Source: Mobula hypostoma (Eukaryota). From it: a DNA stretch of 64,000 nt. The notes under the pieces are model-generated. The model ran no database searches. It had not been told where the DNA came from and was given only the letters and a program-made list of their open reading frames with translations. A program made the position numbers and the translations under genes. Location: the NCBI RefSeq assembly GCF_963921235.1, contig NC_086097.1, positions 4,836,001 to 4,900,000 on the forward strand, written 5' to 3'. Positions 1,038-49,810 of the stretch are shown here, one piece after another; the stretch's first letter is position 1; the number at the start of each line of letters is the position of its first letter.

Positions 1038-1281
1038 ACACAAACGCAAGAGATTCTGCAGATGTTGGAAATCCAGAGCAACACACACTAAATATTGGAT
1101 GAACTCACAGGTCAGCCAGCATCTATAGAAATGAATAAACAGGATGTTCAGGCCAAGACCCTTCTTCGGGATCTGATGAAGCCTGATGAAGGGTTTTGGC
1201 CCGAAATGTCAACCATTTATCCATCTCCATAGATGCAGCCCGAGCTGCTGAGTTCTTCCAGTATTTTGTGTGTGTTGCTTC
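1038..1281. mobile_element. Miniature Penelope-derived hairpin element with a hammerhead-like core
   Basis: Inverted arms resembling the Penelope 3' end; CTGATGA-AGGGTTTTGGCCC-GAAA at 1183-1206; TSD AGAGCTGGCATC (1026-1037) / AGAGATGGCATC (1282-1293). Confidence 0.8.
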
Positions 1282-1388
1282 AGAGATGGCATCCATAGTG
1301 CCTCATTAAATGTGAATCAATTCATGGCCAGCCGGACTGAAGAAATGCAGACGTGTAGACATGAAAAGATCACATCTCTTTCATTTAG

Positions 1389-1551
1389 AAATAAGTCCTA
1401 CTGTTGTGGCAGTGGCTGAGATTTTCATCATTAAATCACAGTGGTATTCTGAACTTCTGAATGAAAGAGATTGGCGACTACTTGTGGGAAAACCCAACAC
1501 AATTGAGCCTGAGACACTGAAGAAAGAGTTAAGAATTTGTAAAACACCTCC
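1389..1551 (+). CDS. Candidate host-gene exon, unidentified (ISPTVVAVAEIFIIKSQWYSELLNERDWRLLVGKPNTIEPETLKKELRICKTP)
   Basis: Non-repeat sequence; acceptor CTCTTTCATTTAG, donor CC|GTGAGT, open frame; no recognisable homology. Confidence 0.3.
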
Positions 1552-2166
1552 GTGAGTTATTACAGCTCATAAAAAGCATCACAGTAGTTATGGTAATTAA
1601 TTGTGGGTGAAATACTCTAACAGGTGTAATAAGGCATTGCATGACATGTTTTTGTCAGCCTATCCATGCATCCACTAAATAATTACATTTTAGAAAACAT
1701 ATTTTCTGTGATAGCTCTATCCATTAGCATTGGCCACAGCTTGTTCCCATTCTGTAGCCATGCTGCTTATGTGAAATTCATCCAACTTGAATATAAGTGG
1801 TAAATGTTGCAACCAAGCTGCAGAGAGTTGTAAAGTCAGCCAGTTCCATCATGAGCACTCACTTCCCCACCATCCAGGACACCATCAAAAGGTGATGCCC
1901 CAAAAAGGCATCATTAAGAACCCGCAAGGACTTGCTCCCTTGTTTTACTACCATCAGGGAGGAGGTGCAGGAGCCTGAAGACACACATTCAATGATTCAG
2001 GATTAGCTTCCTCCACTCCACCATCAGGTTTCTGAATAGACAAAGAACCCTTGTACACTATCTTGATATTTATTTTTTCTTTTTTCCCTCTTTTTGAACT
2101 ACTTATTAATTTAATTTACACATATACACAGTATTGTAAGTTATAGTTTTTATTATTATGTATTGC

Positions 2167-3120
2167 GCAGAGCCTTGTCATCTTCAGAAGTTTTCTGATG
2201 ACTCTGCCATAGTCGGATGCATCAGCAAGGGAGATGAGGTTGAGTACAGGGCTACGGTAGGAAGCTTTGTCACATGGTGTGAGCAGAATTATCTGCAGCT
2301 TAATGTGAAAAAGACTAAGAAGCTGGTGGTAGACCTGAGGAGAGCTAAGGTACCGGTGACCCCTGTTTCCATCCAGAGGGTCAGTGTGGACATGGTGGAG
2401 GATTACAAATACCTGGGGATATGAATTGACAATAAACTGGATTGGTCAAAGAACACTGAGGCTGTCTACAAGAAGGGTCAGAGCTGTCTCTATTTCCTGA
2501 GGAGTCTTTAAAATCTGCCGGAAGATGCTGAGGATGTTCTCCGAGTCTGTGGTGGCCAGTGCTATCATGTTTGCTGTTGTGTGCTGGGGCAGCAGGCTGA
2601 GGGTGGCAGACACCAACAGAATCAACAAACTCATTCGTAAGGCCAGTGATGTTGTGGGGATGGAACTGGACTCTCTGACGGTGGTGTCTGAAAAGAGGAT
2701 GCTGTCCAAGTTGCATGCCATCTTGGACAATGTCTCCCATCCACTACATAATGTACTGGTTGGGCACAGGGGTACATTCAGCCAGAGACTCATTCCACCG
2801 AGATGCAGCACAGAGCGTCATAGGAAGTCATTCCTGCTTGTGGCCATCAAACTTTACAACTCCTCCCTTGGAGGGTCAGACACCCTGAGCCAATAGGCTG
2901 GTCCTGGACTTATTTCATAATTTACTAGCATAATTTACATATTACTATTTAACTATTTATTACTATTTTTCTACTACTATTCTATTACTATTTATTATTT
3001 CCATGACTATTACTATTTACTAATAGTAGTATTACTATTACTATTTATTATTTATAGTGCAATTGTAACGAAAACCAGTTTCCCCCGGGATCGATAAAGT
3101 ATGACCATGACTATGACTAC
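2167..3120 (+). mobile_element. Rex1/Babar-type LINE, 5'-truncated
   Basis: CHLQKFSDDSAIVGCI RT motif, LNVKKTK, YKYLG, SHPLH and RKSFL in ORFs 2158-2424 and 2525-2896; (TATGAC)n-like tail. Confidence 0.88.
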
Positions 3121-3364
3121 TATGTACTGCTGCCACAAAATGACAAATTTCACAACATACGCCAGTGACATCAGAGCTGACTCTGATTTGAGCAACTATG
3201 GAGGAAGTTACCCAAAGTATTATACAGGAGCGATAGATATCCAGAAAATACTTGATAAGTTATCAAGGTTGTCACTCTTTAATCCCTTGACTGAAATAAA
3301 CATTTTTTTTGCCATTTTCCATTGACTGTCTTTTGCAGCAAAATGATGCTCTTGTAATTTATAA

Positions 3365-3520
3365 ACAAGAGAAAGTCGGTAGATTCTGGAAATCCAGAGC
3401 AACACACAATAAATGCCGGAGGAACTCAGCAGGCCAGGCAGTATCCATGGAAATGAGTAAACAGTCAATGTTTTTGGACTATGTTTCCTTCACCGGGACT
3501 GAGAAGGAAAGGGAAAGATA
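3365..3520 (-). mobile_element. Penelope-like 3' terminal fragment (old family)
   Basis: GGAAATCCAGAGCAACACAC...GGAGGAACTCAGCAGGCCAGGCAG, matching the arms of the element at 1038-1281. Confidence 0.65.
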
Positions 3521-12553: not shown

Positions 12554-12757
12554 AACAACAGGAATTCTGCAGATGCTGGAATTTCATGCAATACACATCA
12601 AAGTTGCTGGTGAACGCAGCAGGCCAGGCAGCATCTCTAGGAAGAGGTGCAGTTGACGTTTCGGGCCGAGACCCTTCGTCAGGACTAACTGAAACGTCGA
12701 CTGTACCTCTTCCTAGAGCTGCTGCCTGGCCTGCTGCGTTCACCAGCAACTTTTTTC
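12554..12757. mobile_element. Miniature Penelope hairpin element (young family)
   Basis: Inverted arms 12601-12662 and 12691-12752, nearly identical to the termini of 45173-49070; perfect 15-bp TSD TATATACTTACTGTA (12539-12553, 12758-12772). Confidence 0.92.
12651..12690 (-). ncRNA. Minimal type I hammerhead ribozyme
   Basis: Minus strand reads TAGTC-CTGACGA-AGGGTCTCGGCCC-GAAA-CGTC-AACT. Confidence 0.7.
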
Positions 12758-21226: not shown

Positions 21227-21719
21227 AGGGGTGGGTGCTGAGATAAGAAACTGGGAGGTGAGAGGAAGAAAAGGAGAGGGAGGAATCTGATAGAGAGGAG
21301 AGTGGACCATGGAAGAAAGGGATGGAGGAGGGGCACTGGGGGAGGTGATAGCTAAGTGAGGAGAAGAGGTAAAAGGCTAGAGTGCGACTTGAACAGGAGG
21401 GAAAGGAGAGGGGGAAAATTGCCAGACATGGGGAAATCGATGTACATGACATCATGTTGGAGGTTACCTAGACTCTTATTTTATCACCCCACCCCCACCG
21501 ATCTGGCTTCACCTATCACTTTCTAGCTTGTCCTCTTCCCCCTCCTCCCACTTTTTTATTCAGGCATCATCCCCCTTCCTTTCCCGCTCTGAAGAAGGAT
21601 CTCGGCCTGAAACGTTGACTGTTTATTCATTTCCCTAGATGCTGCCTGACCTGCTGAGTTCCTCCAGCATGTTTTGTGTGTTGCTCTGGATTTCCGGCAT
21701 CTTCAGATTCTCTCCTATT
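21227..21719. mobile_element. Old Penelope insertion with inverted arms
   Basis: Minus arm to about 21475, then a plus arm with CTGAAGAAGGATCTCGGCCTGAAACGTTGACT and the terminal tail; TSD TACACTTGGGA (21216-21226) / TACACCTGGGA (21720-21730). Confidence 0.75.
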
Positions 21720-31000: not shown

Positions 31001-31388
31001 GCTACACAAGCTGTGGTCTGCCAGTCAGGTAGTCCATTATCCAGGATACAATGGAAGTGCCAACCAGCATTGAATGGCGCAGATCCCTCAGCAATGAGGG
31101 CTGTGTGGTATTGAAGGCACTTGAGAAATCAAAAAACATGATCCTCACAGTGCTGCTCTGCTTATCCAAATGGGAGTAGGCTCTGTATATATCCTGTGCC
31201 ATCCAAATTGCTTCTAGAAATTCCAGCCATTGCTGCTCTGCTGTCATCCCTGCCAGTGTTCTTTTCCAATCAATTCTGGCCAACTCCTCTCTCTTCCTCT
31301 GTAATTCCCTTTACTCCACTGTAATACTGATACATCTGACTTTAGCTTCTCCTTCTCAAATTACAGGGTGAATTCAATCATATTATGG
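28020..31388 (-). mobile_element. Decayed CR1 LINE interrupted by Rex1 (30030-31185) and cut off at a Penelope copy
   Basis: ORF 28338-28733 (RSHLEYC, RGDLIET), ORF 29085-29417 (DFQKAFDKVP) and IDWKRTL at 31283; further endonuclease-like remnant at about 32130-32320. Confidence 0.88.
30030..31185 (-). mobile_element. Rex1/Babar LINE, 5'-truncated
   Basis: [35 protein letters not shown]; (TATC)n tail. Confidence 0.88.
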
Positions 31389-31975
31389 CAACACACATCA
31401 AAGTTGCTGGTGAACGCAGCAGGCCAGGCAGCATCTCTAGGAAGACGTTTCAGGCTGAGACCCTTCGTCAGGACTAATTGAAGGAAGAGTGAGTAAGGGA
31501 TTTGAAAGTTGGAGGGGGAGGGGGAGATCCAAAATGATAGGAGAAGACAGGAGGGGGAGGGATAGAGCCAAGAGCTGGACAGGTGATAGGCAAAAAGGGA
31601 TACGAGAGGATCACGGGACAGGAGGTCCGGGAAGAAAGACAAGGGGGGGGGACCCAGAGGATGGGCAAGGGGTATATTCAGAGGGACAGAGGGAGAAAAA
31701 GGAGAGTGAGAGAAAGAATGTGTGTATAAAAATGAGTAACAGATGGGGTACGAGGGGGAGGTGGGGCCTTAGCGGAAGTTAGAGAAGTCAATGTTCATGC
31801 CATCAGGTTGGAGGCTACCCAGACGGAATATAAGGTGTTGTTCCTCCAACCTAAGTGTGGCTTCATCTTTACAGTAGAGGAGGCCGTGGATAGACATGTC
31901 AGAATGGGAATGGGATGTAGAATTAAAATGTGTGTCTATCCACGGCCTCCTCTACTGTACCACATCCCATTTATC
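31389..31975 (-). mobile_element. Young Penelope 3' fragment with a short internal inversion
   Basis: Nearly identical to the reverse complement of 48520-49070; flips to plus at about 31933 (TGTCTATCCACGGCCTCCTCTACTG). Confidence 0.88.
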
Positions 31976-32880
31976 TCCCTTGTATTTTGTAGGCCATACC
32001 CCTACAAAAGGGTTCTGTATACAACTCTCATCAGGGTATTTTTACACTTGCAGTTGCTTAGCTCTGTCCACAATGGGACCTTCCAATCCCATGTCACCTC
32101 TTTCTCATGATTTGATTTCATTTTTTACCAACAGAGCAACGCTGCCCCCTCCGACTTCCTACCTGTCCTTTCGATACAATGTGTATCCTTGGACAGTAAG
32201 ATCCCAGCTATAATCTTTCAGTCATGATTCAGTGATGCCTATAACATCATACCTGCCAATCTGCAATGTGTTGCAAGTTCATCTACCTTATTCCATATAC
32301 TGTGCATATTCAGAAACAACATCTGCAGTCCTACGTTCACCCTTTTCGCTTCTGTCCGCCCTTTACATTGCAACTACAAGCCAGTATGTCTTTGTACCGT
32401 GGAAGGAAACCTGAGCACCTGGAATAAACCTATGCGTGCATAGGAAGAATGACTAAATTGAACTCTGAACTCTGACATCCTGAGCTATAATAGCACAATG
32501 CTAACCACTATGCAACCAATGCACCTCAAATTTTAATTGTACCTGGTGTGTGAGTAGAATTAAGAAATAATGAAAGATTAATTACCACCTTGATTGCTTG
32601 GTGCAGACCGGTGGATAATGAAAAATTAATGAAGGGATTAAAAAAGGGAATTAAGGAATAGAGTATAAAATAAGTTCTGCTAAACTTTTTATAACACACT
32701 GGTTAGTATCAGCAGGAATATTATTTCATTCAATGACAATTCATTCTAGCAAGGATGTGATGACCTTGTTGAAGGTGCAGAAGAGATTTGCAGAGATGTT
32801 GCCTGGAATAAGTTAACAAAGCTATGTAAAGACAATGGAGAAATCGAGGCTGTTCTCCTTAGAGCAGAGTGGATTAAGAG

Positions 32881-33045
32881 CAACACGCACAAAATGCTGG
32901 AGGAATTCAGCGGGTCAGGCAGCATCTATGGAGAGGAATAAAGAGTCCATGTAAAGAGTCCGGGCTGTGACAGTTCATCATGAATTCCTGCGGTGTTTCC
33001 TGTGTCTTTTCTGGATTACCAGCATCTGCAGAATCTATTGTGCTT
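32881..33045. mobile_element. Miniature Penelope-derived hairpin element
   Basis: CAACACGCACAAAATGCTGGAGGAATTCAGC...CCAGCATCTGCAGAATC; TSD GTGGATTAAGAG (32869-32880) / GTGGGTTAAGAG (33046-33057). Confidence 0.75.
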
Positions 33046-39239: not shown

Positions 39240-39745
39240 GATCTTGGCCCAAAATGCCGACTGTTTTGTTCATTTCCATAGATGCCGCCCGACCCACGGT
39301 GTTCCCTGAGCATTTCGTGTGAGTTGCTCTGGATTTCCAGCATCTGCAGAATCTCTTGTGTTTATGATTTGCTGCTCCATTGTGAAGTCTTGTTGAGGGA
39401 TGCCGACCCTGAAGAAGTTAAATCTTCTCTTCAACATGAGTTCAGTGAGACCCTCACTCATTGCTCACTCGCTGTGACCTTTGCTGCCTCTAACTCTTTG
39501 ACCCTGTACTCACCCAGACTCATTACCATAGCCACGTGTCCTTCCAGGGAATATGATTTCACTGCCATCTTGTTCCATATGGCTTCCAGCTCCCTTCCCC
39601 CTTCCTTTCCAGTCCTAAGAAGTATTGGCCCGAAACATTGACTCTCTATTCCTTTCCATAGCTGCTGCCTGACCTGCTGAGTTCCTCCAGCATTTTGTGG
39701 GTGTTGCTCTGGATTTCCAGCATCTGCAGAATCCCTTGCGTTAAT
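39240..39745 (+). mobile_element. Two tandem old Penelope 3' tails (about 39240-39365 and 39580-39745)
   Basis: Both end in TTGCTCTGGATTTCCAGCATCTGCAGAATC. Confidence 0.7.
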
Positions 39746-44070: not shown

Positions 44071-45268
44071 TTAAGTGTAGAGTTGTATCTTTGGAGAAGC
44101 GTGCTTTACCAAGACTTGATTAAAATATACAACCAAATGCTCAGTACAAAGCAGCTTATTAACAATTATGTTGTTCTCCTTTACGCTTGCGTACTGGAAA
44201 TGACATTAAACATTTTGGAATAAGATGAAGATACACGGCAGACTTTTACTCTTCAAAAGTGTGGGGGCATTATTTTCACTGGACGTCCTTGAATTATTAT
44301 GGCAGATGACTGATGCAGTTTTTCTTTGCACAAGCATAGCTCTGTGGACGAGAACGATAATGATGTGGGCAGCTTACAAAAATGACACTGGCTGAGAGGA
44401 CAAATGGGTGGAAAATGGATGTAATGACTCTAAAGGGCCTCTGCGAGCTACAGCTGTTCATGTTACATTATGATAATAGCAGTATATTACATAACCATCT
44501 TTGGCTCTGTTTCTCAAATATATTCAGAGTTTATAGACTGATATGAATTGAGAACTGCTGTTTCTGCAGTTTGTTTGAAAGTCAGAAGCTCCTATAATTT
44601 AGGTCTTAAACCTGGAGGCTGCCAGCTACATCAATAAAGTTTGCAGAAAACAGCACAATAAAATAAATTCTTCAATTTCAATACATTAAATTGATATTGA
44701 TTTTAGGATCCAGCTACTTATTTACATACCCACCAAATGATCTATAGTTCCTCGAAAAATTCTCTACCCAAGAGGGCTGAGGAGATTCAGTCACTAAGTA
44801 TATTCAAGAAGGAGACAGTTTTTAAAATGTGTTTTTATTTTTTATTTAGAGAAGTGGTGTGGAACGGATTCTTCTGGCTCACCAACCTCCTATCTGGGTG
44901 AGGTGAGGGGTCAGAGCCTTTGCTGGTCAGAACTGACCATGGATTTTGTGTCTAAGCTGTCTAGATATGCAAGCCTGGGCAGTGTGATACGGAGAGAAAG
45001 TTGTTGCTCAGGTAGCAAGCTCCCCGTTCTCCACGCATCTGATGAACCCAAAGGAATGGCAGAGACTGGCACAGTTTGGTACCAGCGGCGTTGCAGGAGT
45101 TGCCAGTCAGTTGAACCCTCTATTTAACCCTGGCCTAATTACAGGACAACTTATAATGGCTGTATAAAGGTAAACAACAGGAATTCTGCAGATGCTGGAA
45201 ACTCAAGCAACATACATCAAAGTTGCTGGTGAACGCAGCAGGCCAGGCAGCATCTCTAGGAAGAGGTG

Positions 45269-45306
45269 CAGTCGACGTTTCAGGCCGAGACCCTTCGTCA
45301 GGACTA
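45269..45306 (-). ncRNA. Minimal type I hammerhead ribozyme, left arm
   Basis: Minus strand reads TAGTC-CTGACGA-AGGGTCTCGGCCT-GAAA-CGTC|GACTG. Confidence 0.78.
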
Positions 45307-45600
45307 ACTGAAGGAAGAGTGAGTAAGAGATTTGAAAGTTGGAGGGGGAGGGGGAGATCCAAAATGATAGGAGAAGACAGGAGAGGAAGGGATGGAGCCA
45401 AGAGCTGGACAGGTGATTGGCAAAAGGGATATGAGAGGATCATGGGACGGGAGGTCCAGGAAGAAAGACAAGGTGGGGGGGGGACCCAGAGGATGGGCAA
45501 GAGGTATATTCTGAGGGACAGAGGGAGAAAAAGGAGAGTGAGAGAAAGAATCTGTGTATAAAAATAAGTAACAGATGGGGTACGAGGGGAAGGGGGGGCA

Positions 45601-47097
45601 TTAGCGGAAGTTAGAGAAGTCGATGTTCATGTCATCAGGTTGGAGGCTACCCAGACAGAATATAAGGTGTTGTTCCTCCAACCTGAGCGTGGCTTCATCT
45701 TTACAGTAGAGGAGGCCGTGGATAGACATGTCAGAATGGGAATGGGATGTGGAATTAAAATGTGTGGCCACTGGGAGATCCTGCTTTCTCTGGCGGACAG
45801 AGCGTAGGTGTTCAGCAAAATGATCTCCCAGTCTGCGTCGGGTCTCGCCAATATATAGAAGGCCACATCGGGAGCAGCAGACGCAGTATATCACCCCAGC
45901 CGACTCACAGGTGAAGTGTCGCCTCACCTGGAAGGACTGTCTGGGGCCCTGAATGGTGGTAAGGGAGGAAGTGTAAGGGCACGTGTAGCACTTGTTCCGC
46001 TTACACGGATAAGTGCCAGGAGGGAGATCAGTGGGGAGGGATGGGGGGGACGAATGGATAAGGGAGTCGCGTAGGGAGCGATTCCTGTGGAAAGCAGAGG
46101 GGGGGGGAGGGAAAGATGTGCTTAGTGCTGAGATCCCGTTGGAGGTGGCGGAAGTTACGGAGAATAATATGTTGGACCTGGAGGCTGGTGGGGCGTTAGG
46201 TGAGGACCAGGGGAACCCTATTCCTAGTGGGGTGGCGGGAGGATGGAGTGAGAGCAGGTGTGCGTGAAATGGGGGAGATGCATTGGAGAGCAGAGTTGAT
46301 AGTGGAGGAAGGGAAGCCCCTTTGTTTAAAAAAGGAGGACATCTCCCTCGTCCTAGAATGAAAAGCCTCATCCTGAGAGCAGATGCGGCGGAGACGGAGG
46401 AATTGCGAGAAGGGAATGGCGTTTTTGCAAGAGACAGAGTGAGAAGAGGAATAGTCCAGATAGCTGTGAGAGTCAGTAGGCTTATAGTAGACATCAGTGG
46501 ATAAGCTGTCTCCAGAGACAGAGACAGAAAGATCTAGAAAGGGGAGGGAGGTGTCGGAAATGGACCAGGTAAACTTGAGGGCAGGGTGAAAGTTGGAGGC
46601 AAAGTTAATAAAGTCAACGAGTTCTGCATGCGTGCAGGAAGCAGCGCCAATGCAGTCGTCGATGTAGCGAAGGAAAAGTGGGGGACAGATACCAGAATAG
46701 GCACGGAACATAGATTGTTCCACAAACCCAACAAAAAGGCAGGCATAGCTAGGACCCATACGGGTGCCCATAGCTACACCTTTAGTTTGGAGGAAGTGGG
46801 AGGAGCCAAAGGAGAAATTATTAAGTGTAAGGACTAATTCCACTAGACGGAGCAGAGTGGTGGTAGAGGGGAACTGATTAGGTCTGGAATCCAAAAAGAA
46901 GCGGAGAGCTTTGAGACCTTCCTGATGGGGGATGGAAGTATATAGGGATGGGCATTCATGGTGAAAATAAAGCGGTGGGGGCCAGGGAACTTAAAATCAT
47001 CGAAAAGTTTAAGAGCGTGAGAAGTGTCACGAACATAGGTCGGAAGGGATTGAACAAGGGGGGATAAAACCATGTCGAGGTATGCAGAAACGAGTTC
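45601..47097 (-). pseudogene. Penelope RT + GIY-YIG endonuclease, left arm
   Basis: QTKGVAMG, RYIDD, FLDL, YYKPT, linker CKRNKCYTC, GVIY...LYIGET, EH, HF, GMN-like end; frameshifts near 46200 and 46950. Confidence 0.92.
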
Positions 47098-48679
47098 CCA
47101 CACCTCAGACTTCCCGTTTCTACCTCCTACCCAAGATCCACAAACCTGCCTGTCCTGGCCGACCTATTATCTCAGCTTGCTCCTGCCCCACCGAACTCAT
47201 TTCTGCATACCGCAACACGGTTTTATACCTCTTGTTCAATCCCTTCCTACCTATGTTCATGACACTTCTCACGCTCTTAAACTTTTCGATGATTTTAAGT
47301 TCCCTGGCCCCCACCGCTTTATTTTCACCATGTATGTCCAGTCCTTATATACTTCCATCCCCCATCAGGAAGGTCTCAAAGTTCTGCGCTTCTTTTTGTA
47401 ATCCAGACCTAATCAGTTCCCCTCTACCACCACTCTGCTCCGTCTAGCGGAATTAGTCCTTACTCTTAATAATTTCTCCTTTGGCTCCTCCCACTTCCTC
47501 CAAACTAAAGGTGTAGCTATGGGCACCCGTAAGGGTCCTAGCTATGCCTGCCTTTTTGTTGGGTTTATGGAACAATCTATGTTCCGTGCCTATTCTGGTA
47601 TCTGTCCCCCACTTTTCCTTCGCTACATTGACGACTGCATTGGCGCTGCTTCCTGCACGCATGCAGAGCTCGTTGACTTTATTAACTTTGCCTCCAACTT
47701 TCACCCTGCCCTCAAGTTTACCTGGTCCATTTCCGACACCTCCCTCCCCTTTCTAGATCTTTCTGTCTCTGGAGACAGCTTATCCACTGATGTCTACTAT
47801 AAGCCTACTGACTCTCACAGCTACCTGGACTATTCCTCTTCTCACCCTGTCACTTGCAAAAACGCCATCCCCTTCTCGCAATTCCTCCATCTCCGCCGCA
47901 TCTGCTCTCAGGATGAGGCTTTTCATTCTAGGACGAGGGAGATGTCCTCCTTTTTTAAACAAAGGGGCTTCCCTTCCTCCACTATCAACTCTGCTCTCCA
48001 ATGCATCTCCCCCTATTCACGCACACCTGCTCTCACTCCATCCTCCCGCCACCCCACTAGGAATAGGGTTCCCCAGGTCCTCACCTACCACCCCACCAGC
48101 CTCCGGGTCCAACATATTATTCTCCGTAACTTCCGCCACCTCCAATGGGATCCCAGCACTAAGCACATCTTTCCCTCCCCCCCCGCTTTCCGCAGGGATT
48201 GCTCCCTACGTGACTCCCTTGTCCATTCGTCCCCCCCATCCCTCCCCACTGATCTCCCTCCTGGCATTTATCCGTGTAAGCGGAACAAGTGCTACACATG
48301 CCCTTACACTTCCTCCCTTACCACCATTCAGGGCCCCAGACAGTCCTTCCAGGTGAGGCGACACTTCACCTGTGAGTCGGCTGGGGTGATATACTGCGTC
48401 CGGTGCTCCTGATGTGGCCTTCTATATATTGGCGAGACCCGACGCAGACTGGGAGACCGCTTTTCTGAACACCTACGCTCTGTCCGCCAGAGAAAGCAGG
48501 ATCTCCCAGTGGCCACACATTTTAATTCCACATCCCATTCCCATTCTGACATGTCTATCCACGGCCTCCTCTACTGTAAAGATGAAGCCACGCTCCGGTT
48601 GGAGGAACAACACCTTATATTCCGTCTGGGTAGCCTCCAACCTGATGGCATGAACATCGACTTCTCTAACTTCCGCTAG
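47098..48679 (+). pseudogene. Penelope RT + GIY-YIG endonuclease, right arm
   Basis: FYLLPKIHK, GRPIIS, SLYTSIP, GVAMG, RYIDD, CKRNKCYTC, GVIY...YIGET; frameshift near 47228 and stops at 47399 and 48410. Confidence 0.92.
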
Positions 48680-48971
48680 GCCCCACCTCCCCCTCGTACC
48701 CCAGCTGTTACTCATTTTTATGCACACATTCTTTCTCTCACTCTCCTTTTTCTCCCTCTGTCCCTCTGAATATACCTCTTGCCCATCCTCTGGGTCACCC
48801 CCCCCCCCGTCTTTCTTCCCGGACCTCCTGTCCCATGATCCTCTCGTATCCCCTTTTGCCTATCACCTGTCCAGCTCTCGGCTCTATCCCTCCCCCTCCT
48901 GTCTTCTCCTATCATTTTGGATCTCCCCCTCCCCCTCCAACTTTCAAATCCCTTACTCACTCTTCCTTCAG

Positions 48972-49010
48972 TTAGCCCTGACGAAGGGTCTCTTCCTGAA
49001 ACGTCGACTG
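48972..49010 (+). ncRNA. Minimal type I hammerhead ribozyme, right arm (one stem I mismatch)
   Basis: TAGCC-CTGACGA(48978-48984)-AGGGTCTCTTCCT-GAAA-CGTC|GACTG. Confidence 0.7.
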
Positions 49011-49469
49011 CACCTCTTCCTAGAGATGCTGTCTGGCCTGCTGCGTTCACCAGCAACTTTGATGTGTGTTGCTGTATAAAGGTACTGTCTTTGGACTGTG
49101 GGAGGAAAACCAAACACCAGGAAGAAACACACGTGGTCAAGAGTACGTACAAACTCATTACAGAGGCTGCTCGACTTGAAGTCTGAACTCCAATGCCCGG
49201 AGCTGTAAAGCGTCATGCTGACTACTATGCTACCACAGCCTATACATTTATACAGAGAATCAAAGAACATACCCAAGTCTCTATGGGACATTAGGAAAGA
49301 GATTGCTGGGGCATTGATAAGGATCTTTTGCACCTTCCCTGGCCACAAGAGTGCTCCCAAAGGATTGGAGGATGGCAAATGTTGTTCTATTGTTAAGAGG
49401 TAGTCAGGGTAATCTTGGGGATTATGAACCAGTGAGTCTTACTTCAGTGGAATCATCTGGCAGGACAGA

Positions 49470-49810
49470 CACACTAACACCAGCGTACTGGAGGAGGAAC
49501 ATACTCCACCATGAAAAAGCAACACCAACTCCGATGGAGAGATCCTGTCATTCGATGTCTAGCTCACGTCTCCCCAAACAGATCCTTTACCCCCAGTAGA
49601 GGGAAGGTCAGTGAGCCCCTGGTGAGTTGAGGAAATGCTTCAAAGATAAAATCAAAATCGGCCTGAGCAAATTCAACATTACATCTAACAATTGGGAAGA
49701 CAACGCACTCAACAGATAGATGTGGAGGAAATCTGTTCAAGAGGGGGCTGTGGTACATGAAGATAATTTCTGCTGTGCTGCAGAGAACAAGCGGCAAATG
49801 TGAAAGGGGA
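49470..49810 (+). mobile_element. RTE-clade LINE 3' fragment
   Basis: Manual translation RLPKQILY..REG..APG..RKCFKD.IK..L......WE..A.NR..WR, typical of the RTE C-terminus. Confidence 0.75.

What the first reader, a model, noticed from the sequence alone, without database searches (positions are those of the whole stretch)
45173..49070. One 3.9-kb palindromic Penelope insertion: two 5'-truncated RT/GIY-YIG arms joined head-to-head inside a single 14-bp TSD
Seen: two ~1.9-kb arms with their 3' ends facing outward, a ~95-nt unpaired spacer (47098-47192), a perfect GCTGTATAAAGGTA duplication on both sides, and the host SINE rejoining across it. The left 3' end has a ~33-nt tail (AACAACAGGAATTCTGCAGATGCTGG) that the right end lacks. 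Known: Penelope-like elements often carry inverted partial copies and a short tail. Inference: both nicked target strands primed reverse transcription at the element 3' end and the two cDNAs were then joined.
Basis: partly seen in the sequence, partly recalled or inferred. Interest (0 to 1): 0.8.

Follow-up and report, generated by a model that had tools for sequence, protein, structure and literature searches.

The report
Head-to-head double Penelope-like retrotransposon insertion
This is one old, dead insertion of a Penelope-like retrotransposon made of two truncated copies joined head-to-head inside a single target duplication, an architecture already described for this class of elements.

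Summary
Window 45173-49070 is two 5'-truncated copies of one Penelope-like element (PLE), 3' ends outward, inside a perfect 14-nt direct repeat. A SINE-like host repeat is collinear across the insertion.

Three corrections:
- The "95-nt spacer" is the extra 5' sequence of the longer right arm. It continues the RT reading frame.
- The arms meet at a 4-nt microhomology, GTTC, with no filler.
- The ~36-nt "tail" is the next stretch of the tandem PLE unit, where the long ORF opens.

The linker motif CX4CxxC points to the Neptune/Nematis type, not Penelope/Poseidon.

A single event from one source is supported. The arms share 6 substitutions seen in 0 of 14 other copies, the most among 120 pairs. 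Their private changes are balanced, 33 against 30. No other scored locus has this junction.

All 10 TSD-flanked head-to-head insertions I could inspect carry the tail on exactly one arm.

Priming on both cut target strands is the best mechanism and fits published in-vitro work (PMC11167929), but it remains an inference. The architecture is in print (PMC3846280, PMC8557442). Interest is low to moderate.

The parts
45159..45172 (+). Left copy of the 14-nt target-site duplication GCTGTATAAAGGTA (host DNA, inside a SINE-like repeat)
45173..45208 (-). The 'tail': about 36 nt beyond the usual 3' end. In tandem copies it is the sequence that follows directly and holds the first codons of the long ORF.
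45209..47097 (-). Left arm body: a 5'-truncated PLE copy. With the tail it corresponds to positions 1342-3277 of the natural copy L012:6457-9733. RT and GIY-YIG frames are broken by frameshifts.
45274..45301 (-). Minimal hammerhead-like core in the left arm's 3' region (CUGACGA, helix II, GAAAC, GUC)
   Evidence: Read by eye and compared with features listed in PMC4209133. No Rfam match.
47094..47097 (.). Head-to-head junction: GTTC fits the end of both arms (4-nt microhomology), with no filler DNA
   Evidence: loose-end row at 47093
47098..47192 (+).
47193..49070 (+). Rest of the right arm. The whole arm, 47094-49070(73), corresponds to positions 1242-3243 of the natural copy. No tail. There is one in-frame stop inside the GIY-YIG region at 48410-48412 and a frameshift near 47400-47447.
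48978..49005 (+). The same hammerhead-like core in the right arm, with helix II decayed (GGGUCUCUUCCU)
   Evidence: Read by eye
49071..49084 (+). Right copy of the target-site duplication
45100..45158 (.). Left part of the interrupted SINE-like host repeat
49085..49235 (.). Right part of the interrupted SINE-like host repeat (1821 first-look candidates in the genome; 39 scored relatives at 75-85% identity)

Best explanation
This is a single, old, dead-on-arrival retrotransposition of a Neptune/Nematis-type Penelope-like element into a SINE-like host repeat.

The element's endonuclease cut the two target strands 14 bp apart. Each freed 3' end then primed reverse transcription near the element's 3' end. 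One started at the proximal start site and gave the right arm without a tail. The other started about 36 nt further downstream and gave the left arm with the tail.

The two cDNAs stopped about 1.9-2.0 kb in. Their 3' ends paired through GTTC, and each was completed on the other. The result is a head-to-head palindrome inside one target duplication.

**Shown:** the anatomy, the single TSD, a common source for the two arms, equal age of the arms, and a junction not seen elsewhere among scored matches.
**Inferred:** which ends primed, and how the cDNAs were joined.

My odds are about 0.9 for a single-event double-arm insertion and about 0.6 for priming on both strands. The confidence given is for the whole statement.
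For: **The insertion itself**
- A perfect 14-nt direct repeat sits exactly at both outer ends, against 0.04 expected by chance.
- The host repeat is collinear across the insertion in 6 of 11 relatives.
- The arms share 6 substitutions found in 0 of 14 other copies. That is rank 1 of 120 pairs. The next pair is the two arms of another such insertion (L014) with 4, and unrelated pairs have at most 2.
- Of the 78 differences between arms, 33 are derived in the left arm, 30 in the right and 15 are ambiguous, so the arms are equally old.
- There is no long identical tract that would suggest arm-to-arm conversion: the longest is 156 nt, against a simulated mean of 116 and a 95th percentile of 169.
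- The junction has 4-nt microhomology and no filler.
- Only 1 of 40 scored candidates spans the junction, and that is the locus itself.

**The family**
- All 10 TSD-flanked head-to-head insertions of this family with both ends visible carry the tail on exactly one arm. Their TSDs are 9-16 nt.

**Literature (passages read)**
- A purified PLE protein cleaves and extends both target strands and initiates at two sites that bracket the tail (PMC11167929).
- Inverted 5'-truncated copies, a single TSD and a tail at one end are typical of PLEs (PMC3846280; PMC8557442).
Against: - Sequence alone cannot show which 3' ends primed.
- Self-priming has been proposed for PLE inverted repeats (PMC3846280) and gives the same junction.
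- If the two start sites were chosen independently, as the in-vitro paper's remark of no strand difference would suggest, tail/tail and none/none insertions should occur. None was seen in 10, so the two primings are coupled in a way the simple model does not state.
- Shared private substitutions show a common source lineage, not one RNA molecule.
- No read or contig spans the whole structure, so the assembly is not independently confirmed.
Confidence: 0.6

Rival explanations
1. One primer plus self-priming. A single target-primed cDNA folded back on itself through the GTTC microhomology and copied itself, so the second arm is a DNA copy of the first. This is the self-priming idea raised for PLE inverted repeats.
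For: The junction is compatible: the longer arm's cDNA end can pair with GTTC about 95 nt inside the same strand. The arms are nearly equal in length, about 100 nt apart over 1.9 kb. Self-priming is proposed in PMC3846280.
Against: - The shorter left arm would be the copy, yet it carries the 36-nt tail that the longer right arm lacks.
- A fold-back on a cDNA attached to one target end makes a hairpin, not a palindrome joined to the other target end with a direct TSD.
- In 5 of the 6 long head-to-head insertions the arms differ by more than 400 nt.
Confidence: 0.15
2. Copying of a ready-made palindrome. A source locus that was already head-to-head was transcribed through and inserted by ordinary single-strand priming.
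For: Some composite junctions recur at different loci. L012 and L038 share the 369-411|417 junction. L045 and L057 have 2282|2689 and 2296|2686. Composites may therefore be propagated or duplicated.
Against: No other scored locus spans this junction: 1 of 40 scored, and a sibling would have ranked first. A 1.9-kb perfect RNA hairpin would also be a poor template (inference).
Confidence: 0.07
3. Two separate events or a later rearrangement: a second copy landed beside the first, or a single copy was later duplicated in inverted orientation.
For: PLE copies are very dense here, with 14 fragments in the 64-kb window. One head-to-head pair (L016) has no recognisable TSD.
Against: - Two events would leave two TSDs, not one direct 14-mer at the outer ends.
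- An inverted duplication would invert the flanking 14-mer.
- The arms are equally old and share 6 private substitutions.
Confidence: 0.03
4. Assembly fold-back artefact.
For: Palindromes are a known product of chimeric long reads. No read or contig here spans the structure.
Against: - The arms differ at 78 sites and 8 indels, and in the tail. An artefact would be near-perfect.
- A direct TSD flanks the structure.
- Nine more insertions of the same design occur in this assembly.
- The design is documented in other animals.
Confidence: 0.03

Closest known systems
Endonuclease-containing Penelope-like elements with inverted pLTR/inverted 5'-truncated copy and one-sided 'tail' (Arkhipova et al. 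2013, PMC3846280; Craig et al. 2021, PMC8557442)
   Same: - RT followed by a C-terminal GIY-YIG nuclease.
- Tandem unit giving pseudo-LTRs.
- Head-to-head inverted 5'-truncated copy.
- One TSD around the whole unit.
- A 30-40-nt tail at one end that holds the start of the ORF.
- A minimal hammerhead-like core in the 3' region.
   Different: In the usual drawing a short inverted pLTR sits upstream of a full copy. Here both arms are long (1.9 kb), nearly equal and both truncated, so no complete ORF is present. By its linker motif this family is Neptune/Nematis-type.
PAc (Poseidon of Anolis carolinensis) in-vitro system (PMC11167929)
   Same: There are two alternative starts of reverse transcription about 36 nt apart that define the tail. 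Use of both target strands would give exactly this architecture.
   Different: In vitro, the start site was said not to differ between strands. In this genome the two starts are used once each in 10 of 10 double-arm insertions. In PAc the starts lie 111-118 nt into the ORF. Here they lie at the very start of the open frame.
L1 twin priming
   Same: The second target strand also serves as a primer. The junction forms by microhomology, and a single TSD results.
   Different: In twin priming the second primer anneals inside the same RNA, so the inverted and direct parts are different segments. Here both arms contain the same 3' end. A twin-priming-like case does occur in this family (L006).

Membership tests
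EN+ Penelope-like elements (PLE) | Reverse transcriptase domain | tested here: met
   Pfam RVT_1 gives E 4.1e-5 (23.8 bits, below the 29.6 cut-off) on sibling copy L013 and E 0.007 on the left arm. The catalytic FLRYIDDC motif is readable in both arms. Atlas neighbours carry RVT_1, DUF8422 and HTH_animal, all from animals (a lead only).
EN+ Penelope-like elements (PLE) | C-terminal GIY-YIG endonuclease fused to the RT | tested here: met
   Pfam GIY-YIG gives 23.9 bits against a 22.6 cut-off on L013, and 17 bits, E 0.007, on each arm. It lies downstream of the RT in the same copy.
EN+ Penelope-like elements (PLE) | CCHH motif with two cysteines between GIY and YIG (PMC8557442) | tested here: met
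   GVIYCVRCSRCGLLYIGET, followed by AEHL and THF...SHSH, read by eye.
EN+ Penelope-like elements (PLE) | Partial tandem arrangement giving pseudo-LTRs | tested here: met
   19 of 29 loci with the element's 5' region have an upstream direct 5'-truncated copy that runs through the tail into a 248-nt leader and the ORF. Two tandem 3' ends lie 3516 nt apart.
EN+ Penelope-like elements (PLE) | Hammerhead ribozyme motif in the pLTR | tested here: inconclusive
   No Rfam hit at gathering score or at E up to 10. By eye the core CUGACGA-A-GGGUCUCGGCCC-GAAAC-GUC shows four features of the minimal PLE hammerhead listed in PMC4209133: no helix III, an extra base after position 9, a G10.1-C11.1 pair, and a palindromic 15.2-16.2.
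EN+ Penelope-like elements (PLE) | Optional 30-40-nt tail at one end, variable TSD, frequent 5' truncation and inverted copies | tested here: met
   The tail is about 36 nt and sits on one arm in 10 of 10 head-to-head insertions. TSDs are 9-16 nt.
EN+ Penelope-like elements (PLE) | RT clusters with PLE RTs, as sister to telomerase RT | not tested
   No reference PLE or TERT sequences were on hand, so no tree was built.
Neptune / Nematis clades | Extra CX2-5CxxC motif in the linker upstream of GIY-YIG (PMC8557442) | tested here: met
   CKRNKCYTC (CX4CxxC) lies 36 residues before GVIY in both arms and in L013, read by eye. Neptune and Nematis were not told apart.
Penelope/Poseidon clade (Penelope in the narrow sense) | Absence of the CX2-5CxxC linker motif | tested here: not met
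   The motif is present.
L1-type twin priming | Inverted and direct parts are different, adjoining segments of one RNA | tested here: not met
   Both arms cover the same 3' 1.9 kb.

The most novel reading that the evidence does not exclude
Both arms of a double-arm PLE insertion are copied from one RNA molecule. The primer that starts at the proximal site occupies the template, so the second target end can only start on the still-free 3' stretch about 36 nt downstream. It then follows behind, displacing the first cDNA.

This would explain why the tail sits on exactly one arm in 10 of 10 insertions, where independent choice gives at most 0.5 per insertion, or about 0.001 overall. It would also explain why arms of one insertion share private substitutions. 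On this reading the 'tail' is a footprint of two polymerases sharing one template.
Probability: 0.3. Interest if true: 0.55.

Novelty: already known. Interest (0 to 1): 0.25.

Why it matters
The PLE transposition cycle is still poorly understood, and the authors cited here call its inverted structures and tail unexplained.

This locus adds no new kind of structure. It is a clean natural record of one: long arms, an exact TSD, a filler-free microhomology junction, and arms that demonstrably come from one source.

The small survey around it shows a strict one-tail-per-insertion rule in this genome. That points to coupling between the two start sites seen in vitro. A barcoded-RNA experiment in the existing in-vitro system could test the coupling directly.

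Tried and rejected
- **Rfam.** No hammerhead or any other family at gathering score in the window. At E up to 10 in 45100-49150 the only hit was a chance snoRNA match at E 1.5.
- **Fold of the tail region.** A stem joining the tail's first bases to the leader was predicted in 2 of 3 natural copies. The energies are not unusual (z -0.34, -1.69, -1.32 against mononucleotide shuffles), so this is not used as evidence.
- **Solved structures.** No meaningful match (best E 0.17, unrelated).
- **Earlier notes.** None for this place.
- **Reads.**
  - All four runs laid are short contigs swamped by the repeat family, and none spans the structure.
  - One contig of run X5, which carries another organism label, covers 49050-49386 with 8 differences. 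Only 21 letters lie on the arm side, under the tool's 31-letter rule, so it does not count as bridging.
  - No joint across 45173-49084 (an empty site) was among the listed joints, but 2143 joints were not shown.
- **Wider survey.**
  - A search with a young copy's 3' end returned nothing, probably because very common words are skipped.
  - 39 further 3' ends were located, but their sequence could not be fetched.
  - A search with a tail-bearing end returned only tail-bearing ends and no partner arms.
- **Arm length against tail.** The tail-less arm is the longer in 7 of 10, which is not a rule.
- **De novo insertions in print.** The Chlamydomonas mutation-accumulation paper (PMC9977147, passages) says nothing on inverted PLE insertions.
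- **Explicit model in print.** Two full-text searches found no paper that states the both-strand priming model for PLE palindromes. Older subscription papers are outside the library.
Full report
**1. The observation**

The repeat finder gives nine collinear inverted blocks, 86-97% complementary, pairing 45206-47097 with 47193-49073. It also gives a 14-nt direct repeat, GCTGTATAAAGGTA, at 45159-45172 and 49071-49084.

That word occurs only at these two places in the window at up to one mismatch. Chance expectation is 0.04, and 0 of 100 shuffles gave two or more.

One BLAST alignment of the right arm against the reverse complement of the left arm covers 1892 columns at 95.19% identity, with 74 mismatches and 17 gap letters in 8 gaps. 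The left end carries about 36 nt (45173-45208) that the right end lacks.

**2. The 'spacer' is part of the right arm**

- Read on the + strand, 47098-47192 gives RFYLLPKIHKPACPGRPIISACSCPTE, which continues the right arm's RT frame.
- Against a longer natural copy of the family (L012:6457-9733, used only as a ruler), the left arm is 45172-47097 = positions 1342-3277. The right arm is 47093-49073 = positions 1242-3243. Both are collinear.
- Thirty-nine other genomic copies match the window from 47093 rightwards.
- GTTC (47094-47097) fits both arms, and there is no filler.

**3. The host site**

The right flank belongs to a repeat with 1821 first-look candidates. The 39 scored relatives are 75-85% identical.

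In 6 of 11 fetched relatives, the last 26-60 nt of the left flank map right next to the right-flank match. The spacing fits one copy of the 14-mer rather than two. The other 5 gave no left-flank match. The SINE-like repeat therefore rejoins across the insertion.

**4. What the element is**

- *Protein domains.* The arms give weak Pfam matches to RVT_1 and GIY-YIG (E 0.007 each). A younger sibling (L013) gives GIY-YIG at 23.9 bits, above the 22.6 cut-off, and RVT_1 at 23.8 bits, below the 29.6 cut-off. The motifs FLRYIDDC and GVIYCVRCSRCGLLYIGET can be read. The second has two cysteines between GIY and YIG.
- *Clade.* CKRNKCYTC (CX4CxxC) lies 36 residues upstream of GIY. Craig et al. assign this linker motif to Neptune and Nematis and say it is absent from Penelope/Poseidon (PMC8557442, passages).
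- *Abundance and age.* The right arm alone gave 9789 first-look candidates in a 3.48-Gb genome. Copies of the 5' region are 98-99% alike.
- *Tandem unit.* In 19 of 29 loci holding the 5' region, an upstream direct 5'-truncated copy runs through the tail, then a 248-nt leader, into the ORF. This is the pseudo-LTR arrangement. Six loci have inverted upstream arms, and six have no upstream copy.
- *The tail.* The long frame opens at an ATG lying in GATGTATGTTGCT, so the tail holds about codons 3-14. This matches the description for rotifer Penelope (PMC3846280). The tail is therefore the next 36 nt of the tandem unit.
- *Hammerhead.* Rfam finds none. By eye, the 3' region has a minimal hammerhead-like core with the four traits listed in PMC4209133.

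**5. One event from one source**

I aligned the two arms with 14 other natural copies. The two arms both have a base in 1876 of the alignment's columns.

- The arms differ at 78 sites (4.2%), of which 51 are transitions.
- Judged against the other copies, 33 changes are derived in the left arm, 30 in the right, and 15 are ambiguous.
- At 6 sites both arms share a base seen in 0 of the 14 other copies.
- Among all 120 pairs of sequences this is the highest count. The second is the pair of arms of another head-to-head insertion (L014, 4 sites). Unrelated pairs reach at most 2, and the median is 0. The arms of L012 share only 1.
- The shared changes are clean substitutions.
- There is no unusually long identical tract. 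The longest is 156 nt, against a simulated mean of 116 and a 95th percentile of 169. Arm-to-arm conversion is therefore not indicated.
- A search with the junction found only the locus itself spanning it, 1 of 40 scored out of 571 candidates.

**6. Sister insertions**

In the window and the loci I held, I found 10 head-to-head insertions with a recognisable TSD and both 3' ends visible:

- two in the window (the focal one, and a 200-nt one at 12554-12753);
- L012, L014, L015 and L017;
- two in L018;
- two that turned up by chance in loci fetched for the SINE (L023, L029).

TSDs are 9-16 nt. In all 10 the tail is on exactly one arm.

An eleventh pair (L016) has no recognisable TSD and no tail at either end. 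The copy at 31388-31934 has only a 27-nt inverted piece and is a different case.

Among 10 single copies, 5 have the tail, 4 lack it and 1 has part of it. Independent choice would therefore give one-tailed pairs about half the time.

Arm lengths are not tightly linked. The arms differ by 100 nt or less in 5 of 10 insertions, and four of those five are very short insertions. They differ by more than 400 nt in 5 of the 6 long ones. The tail-less arm is the longer in 7 of 10.

**7. Mechanism**

The direct TSD means the two target strands were cut 14 bp apart, leaving 3' ends that face into the insertion.

- The right arm starts at ...GTGTGTT(GCT). GCT also matches the primer's end, a 3-nt microhomology.
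- The left arm starts 36 nt further downstream.

A purified PLE protein cleaves and extends both strands of a target. It starts at two adjacent sites whose interval is the tail (PMC11167929, passages). Priming on both strands, followed by pairing of the two cDNA ends through GTTC, accounts for everything seen here.

The self-priming idea (PMC3846280) gives the same junction. It does not explain a tail on the shorter arm or a direct TSD.

The strict one-tail rule suggests the two starts are coupled, possibly because both cDNAs use one RNA. That is my most novel reading. It is unproven.

**8. Limits**

- Only short contigs of public runs could be laid, and none spans the structure.
- No RT tree was made.
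- Supplements of the cited papers were not opened. Those of PMC11167929 may bear on start-site pairing.

**9. Verdict**

This is a real, well-preserved example of a known PLE insertion architecture in a very PLE-rich vertebrate-sized genome.

Noticed in passing
window 12554-12753: A 200-nt miniature of the same design. The left arm is 141 nt with the tail, the right arm is 65 nt without it, and the TSD is TATATACTTACTGTA (15 nt).
   Followed up: yes
window 31388-31959: A 547-nt copy without a tail. Its 5' end abuts a 27-nt inverted piece taken from 38 nt inside the same copy, which looks like a short fold-back. No TSD was recognised.
   Followed up: partly
L012:6411-6456 and L038 (oriented) 1399-1497 and 2790-2888: Two different loci carry the same odd junction: element positions 369-411 inverted against 417 onward. 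Composite structures may therefore be copied, or this may be a hot spot. L045 and L057 likewise have near-identical junctions (2282|2689 and 2296|2686).
   Followed up: no
L006:4245-4322: An 80-nt inverted copy of the segment just upstream of the truncation point (positions 412-491 against a copy starting at 486). This is the pattern expected from twin priming on one RNA.
   Followed up: no
G000:C21:136338367-136342130: Two tail-bearing 3' ends on the same strand lie 3516 nt apart. That is a full tandem unit and gives the unit length.
   Followed up: no
L014:3062-3066, L017:3334-3339, L018:5929-5937, L023:1386-1388: In four insertions the tail runs 3-9 nt further into the leader before the TSD begins. 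Start points therefore scatter downstream of the usual distal site.
   Followed up: partly
window 1053-1181, 3363-3452, 21589-21710, 32879-32936, 39318-39363, 39651-39736: Older fragments (76-87% alike) of the same 3' region. The family or its relatives have been inserting here for a long time.
   Followed up: no
window 44700-49500: Runs under seven other organism labels hold 27-69% of the stretch's sampled words. Close relatives of this PLE family are therefore present in several related taxa.
   Followed up: partly
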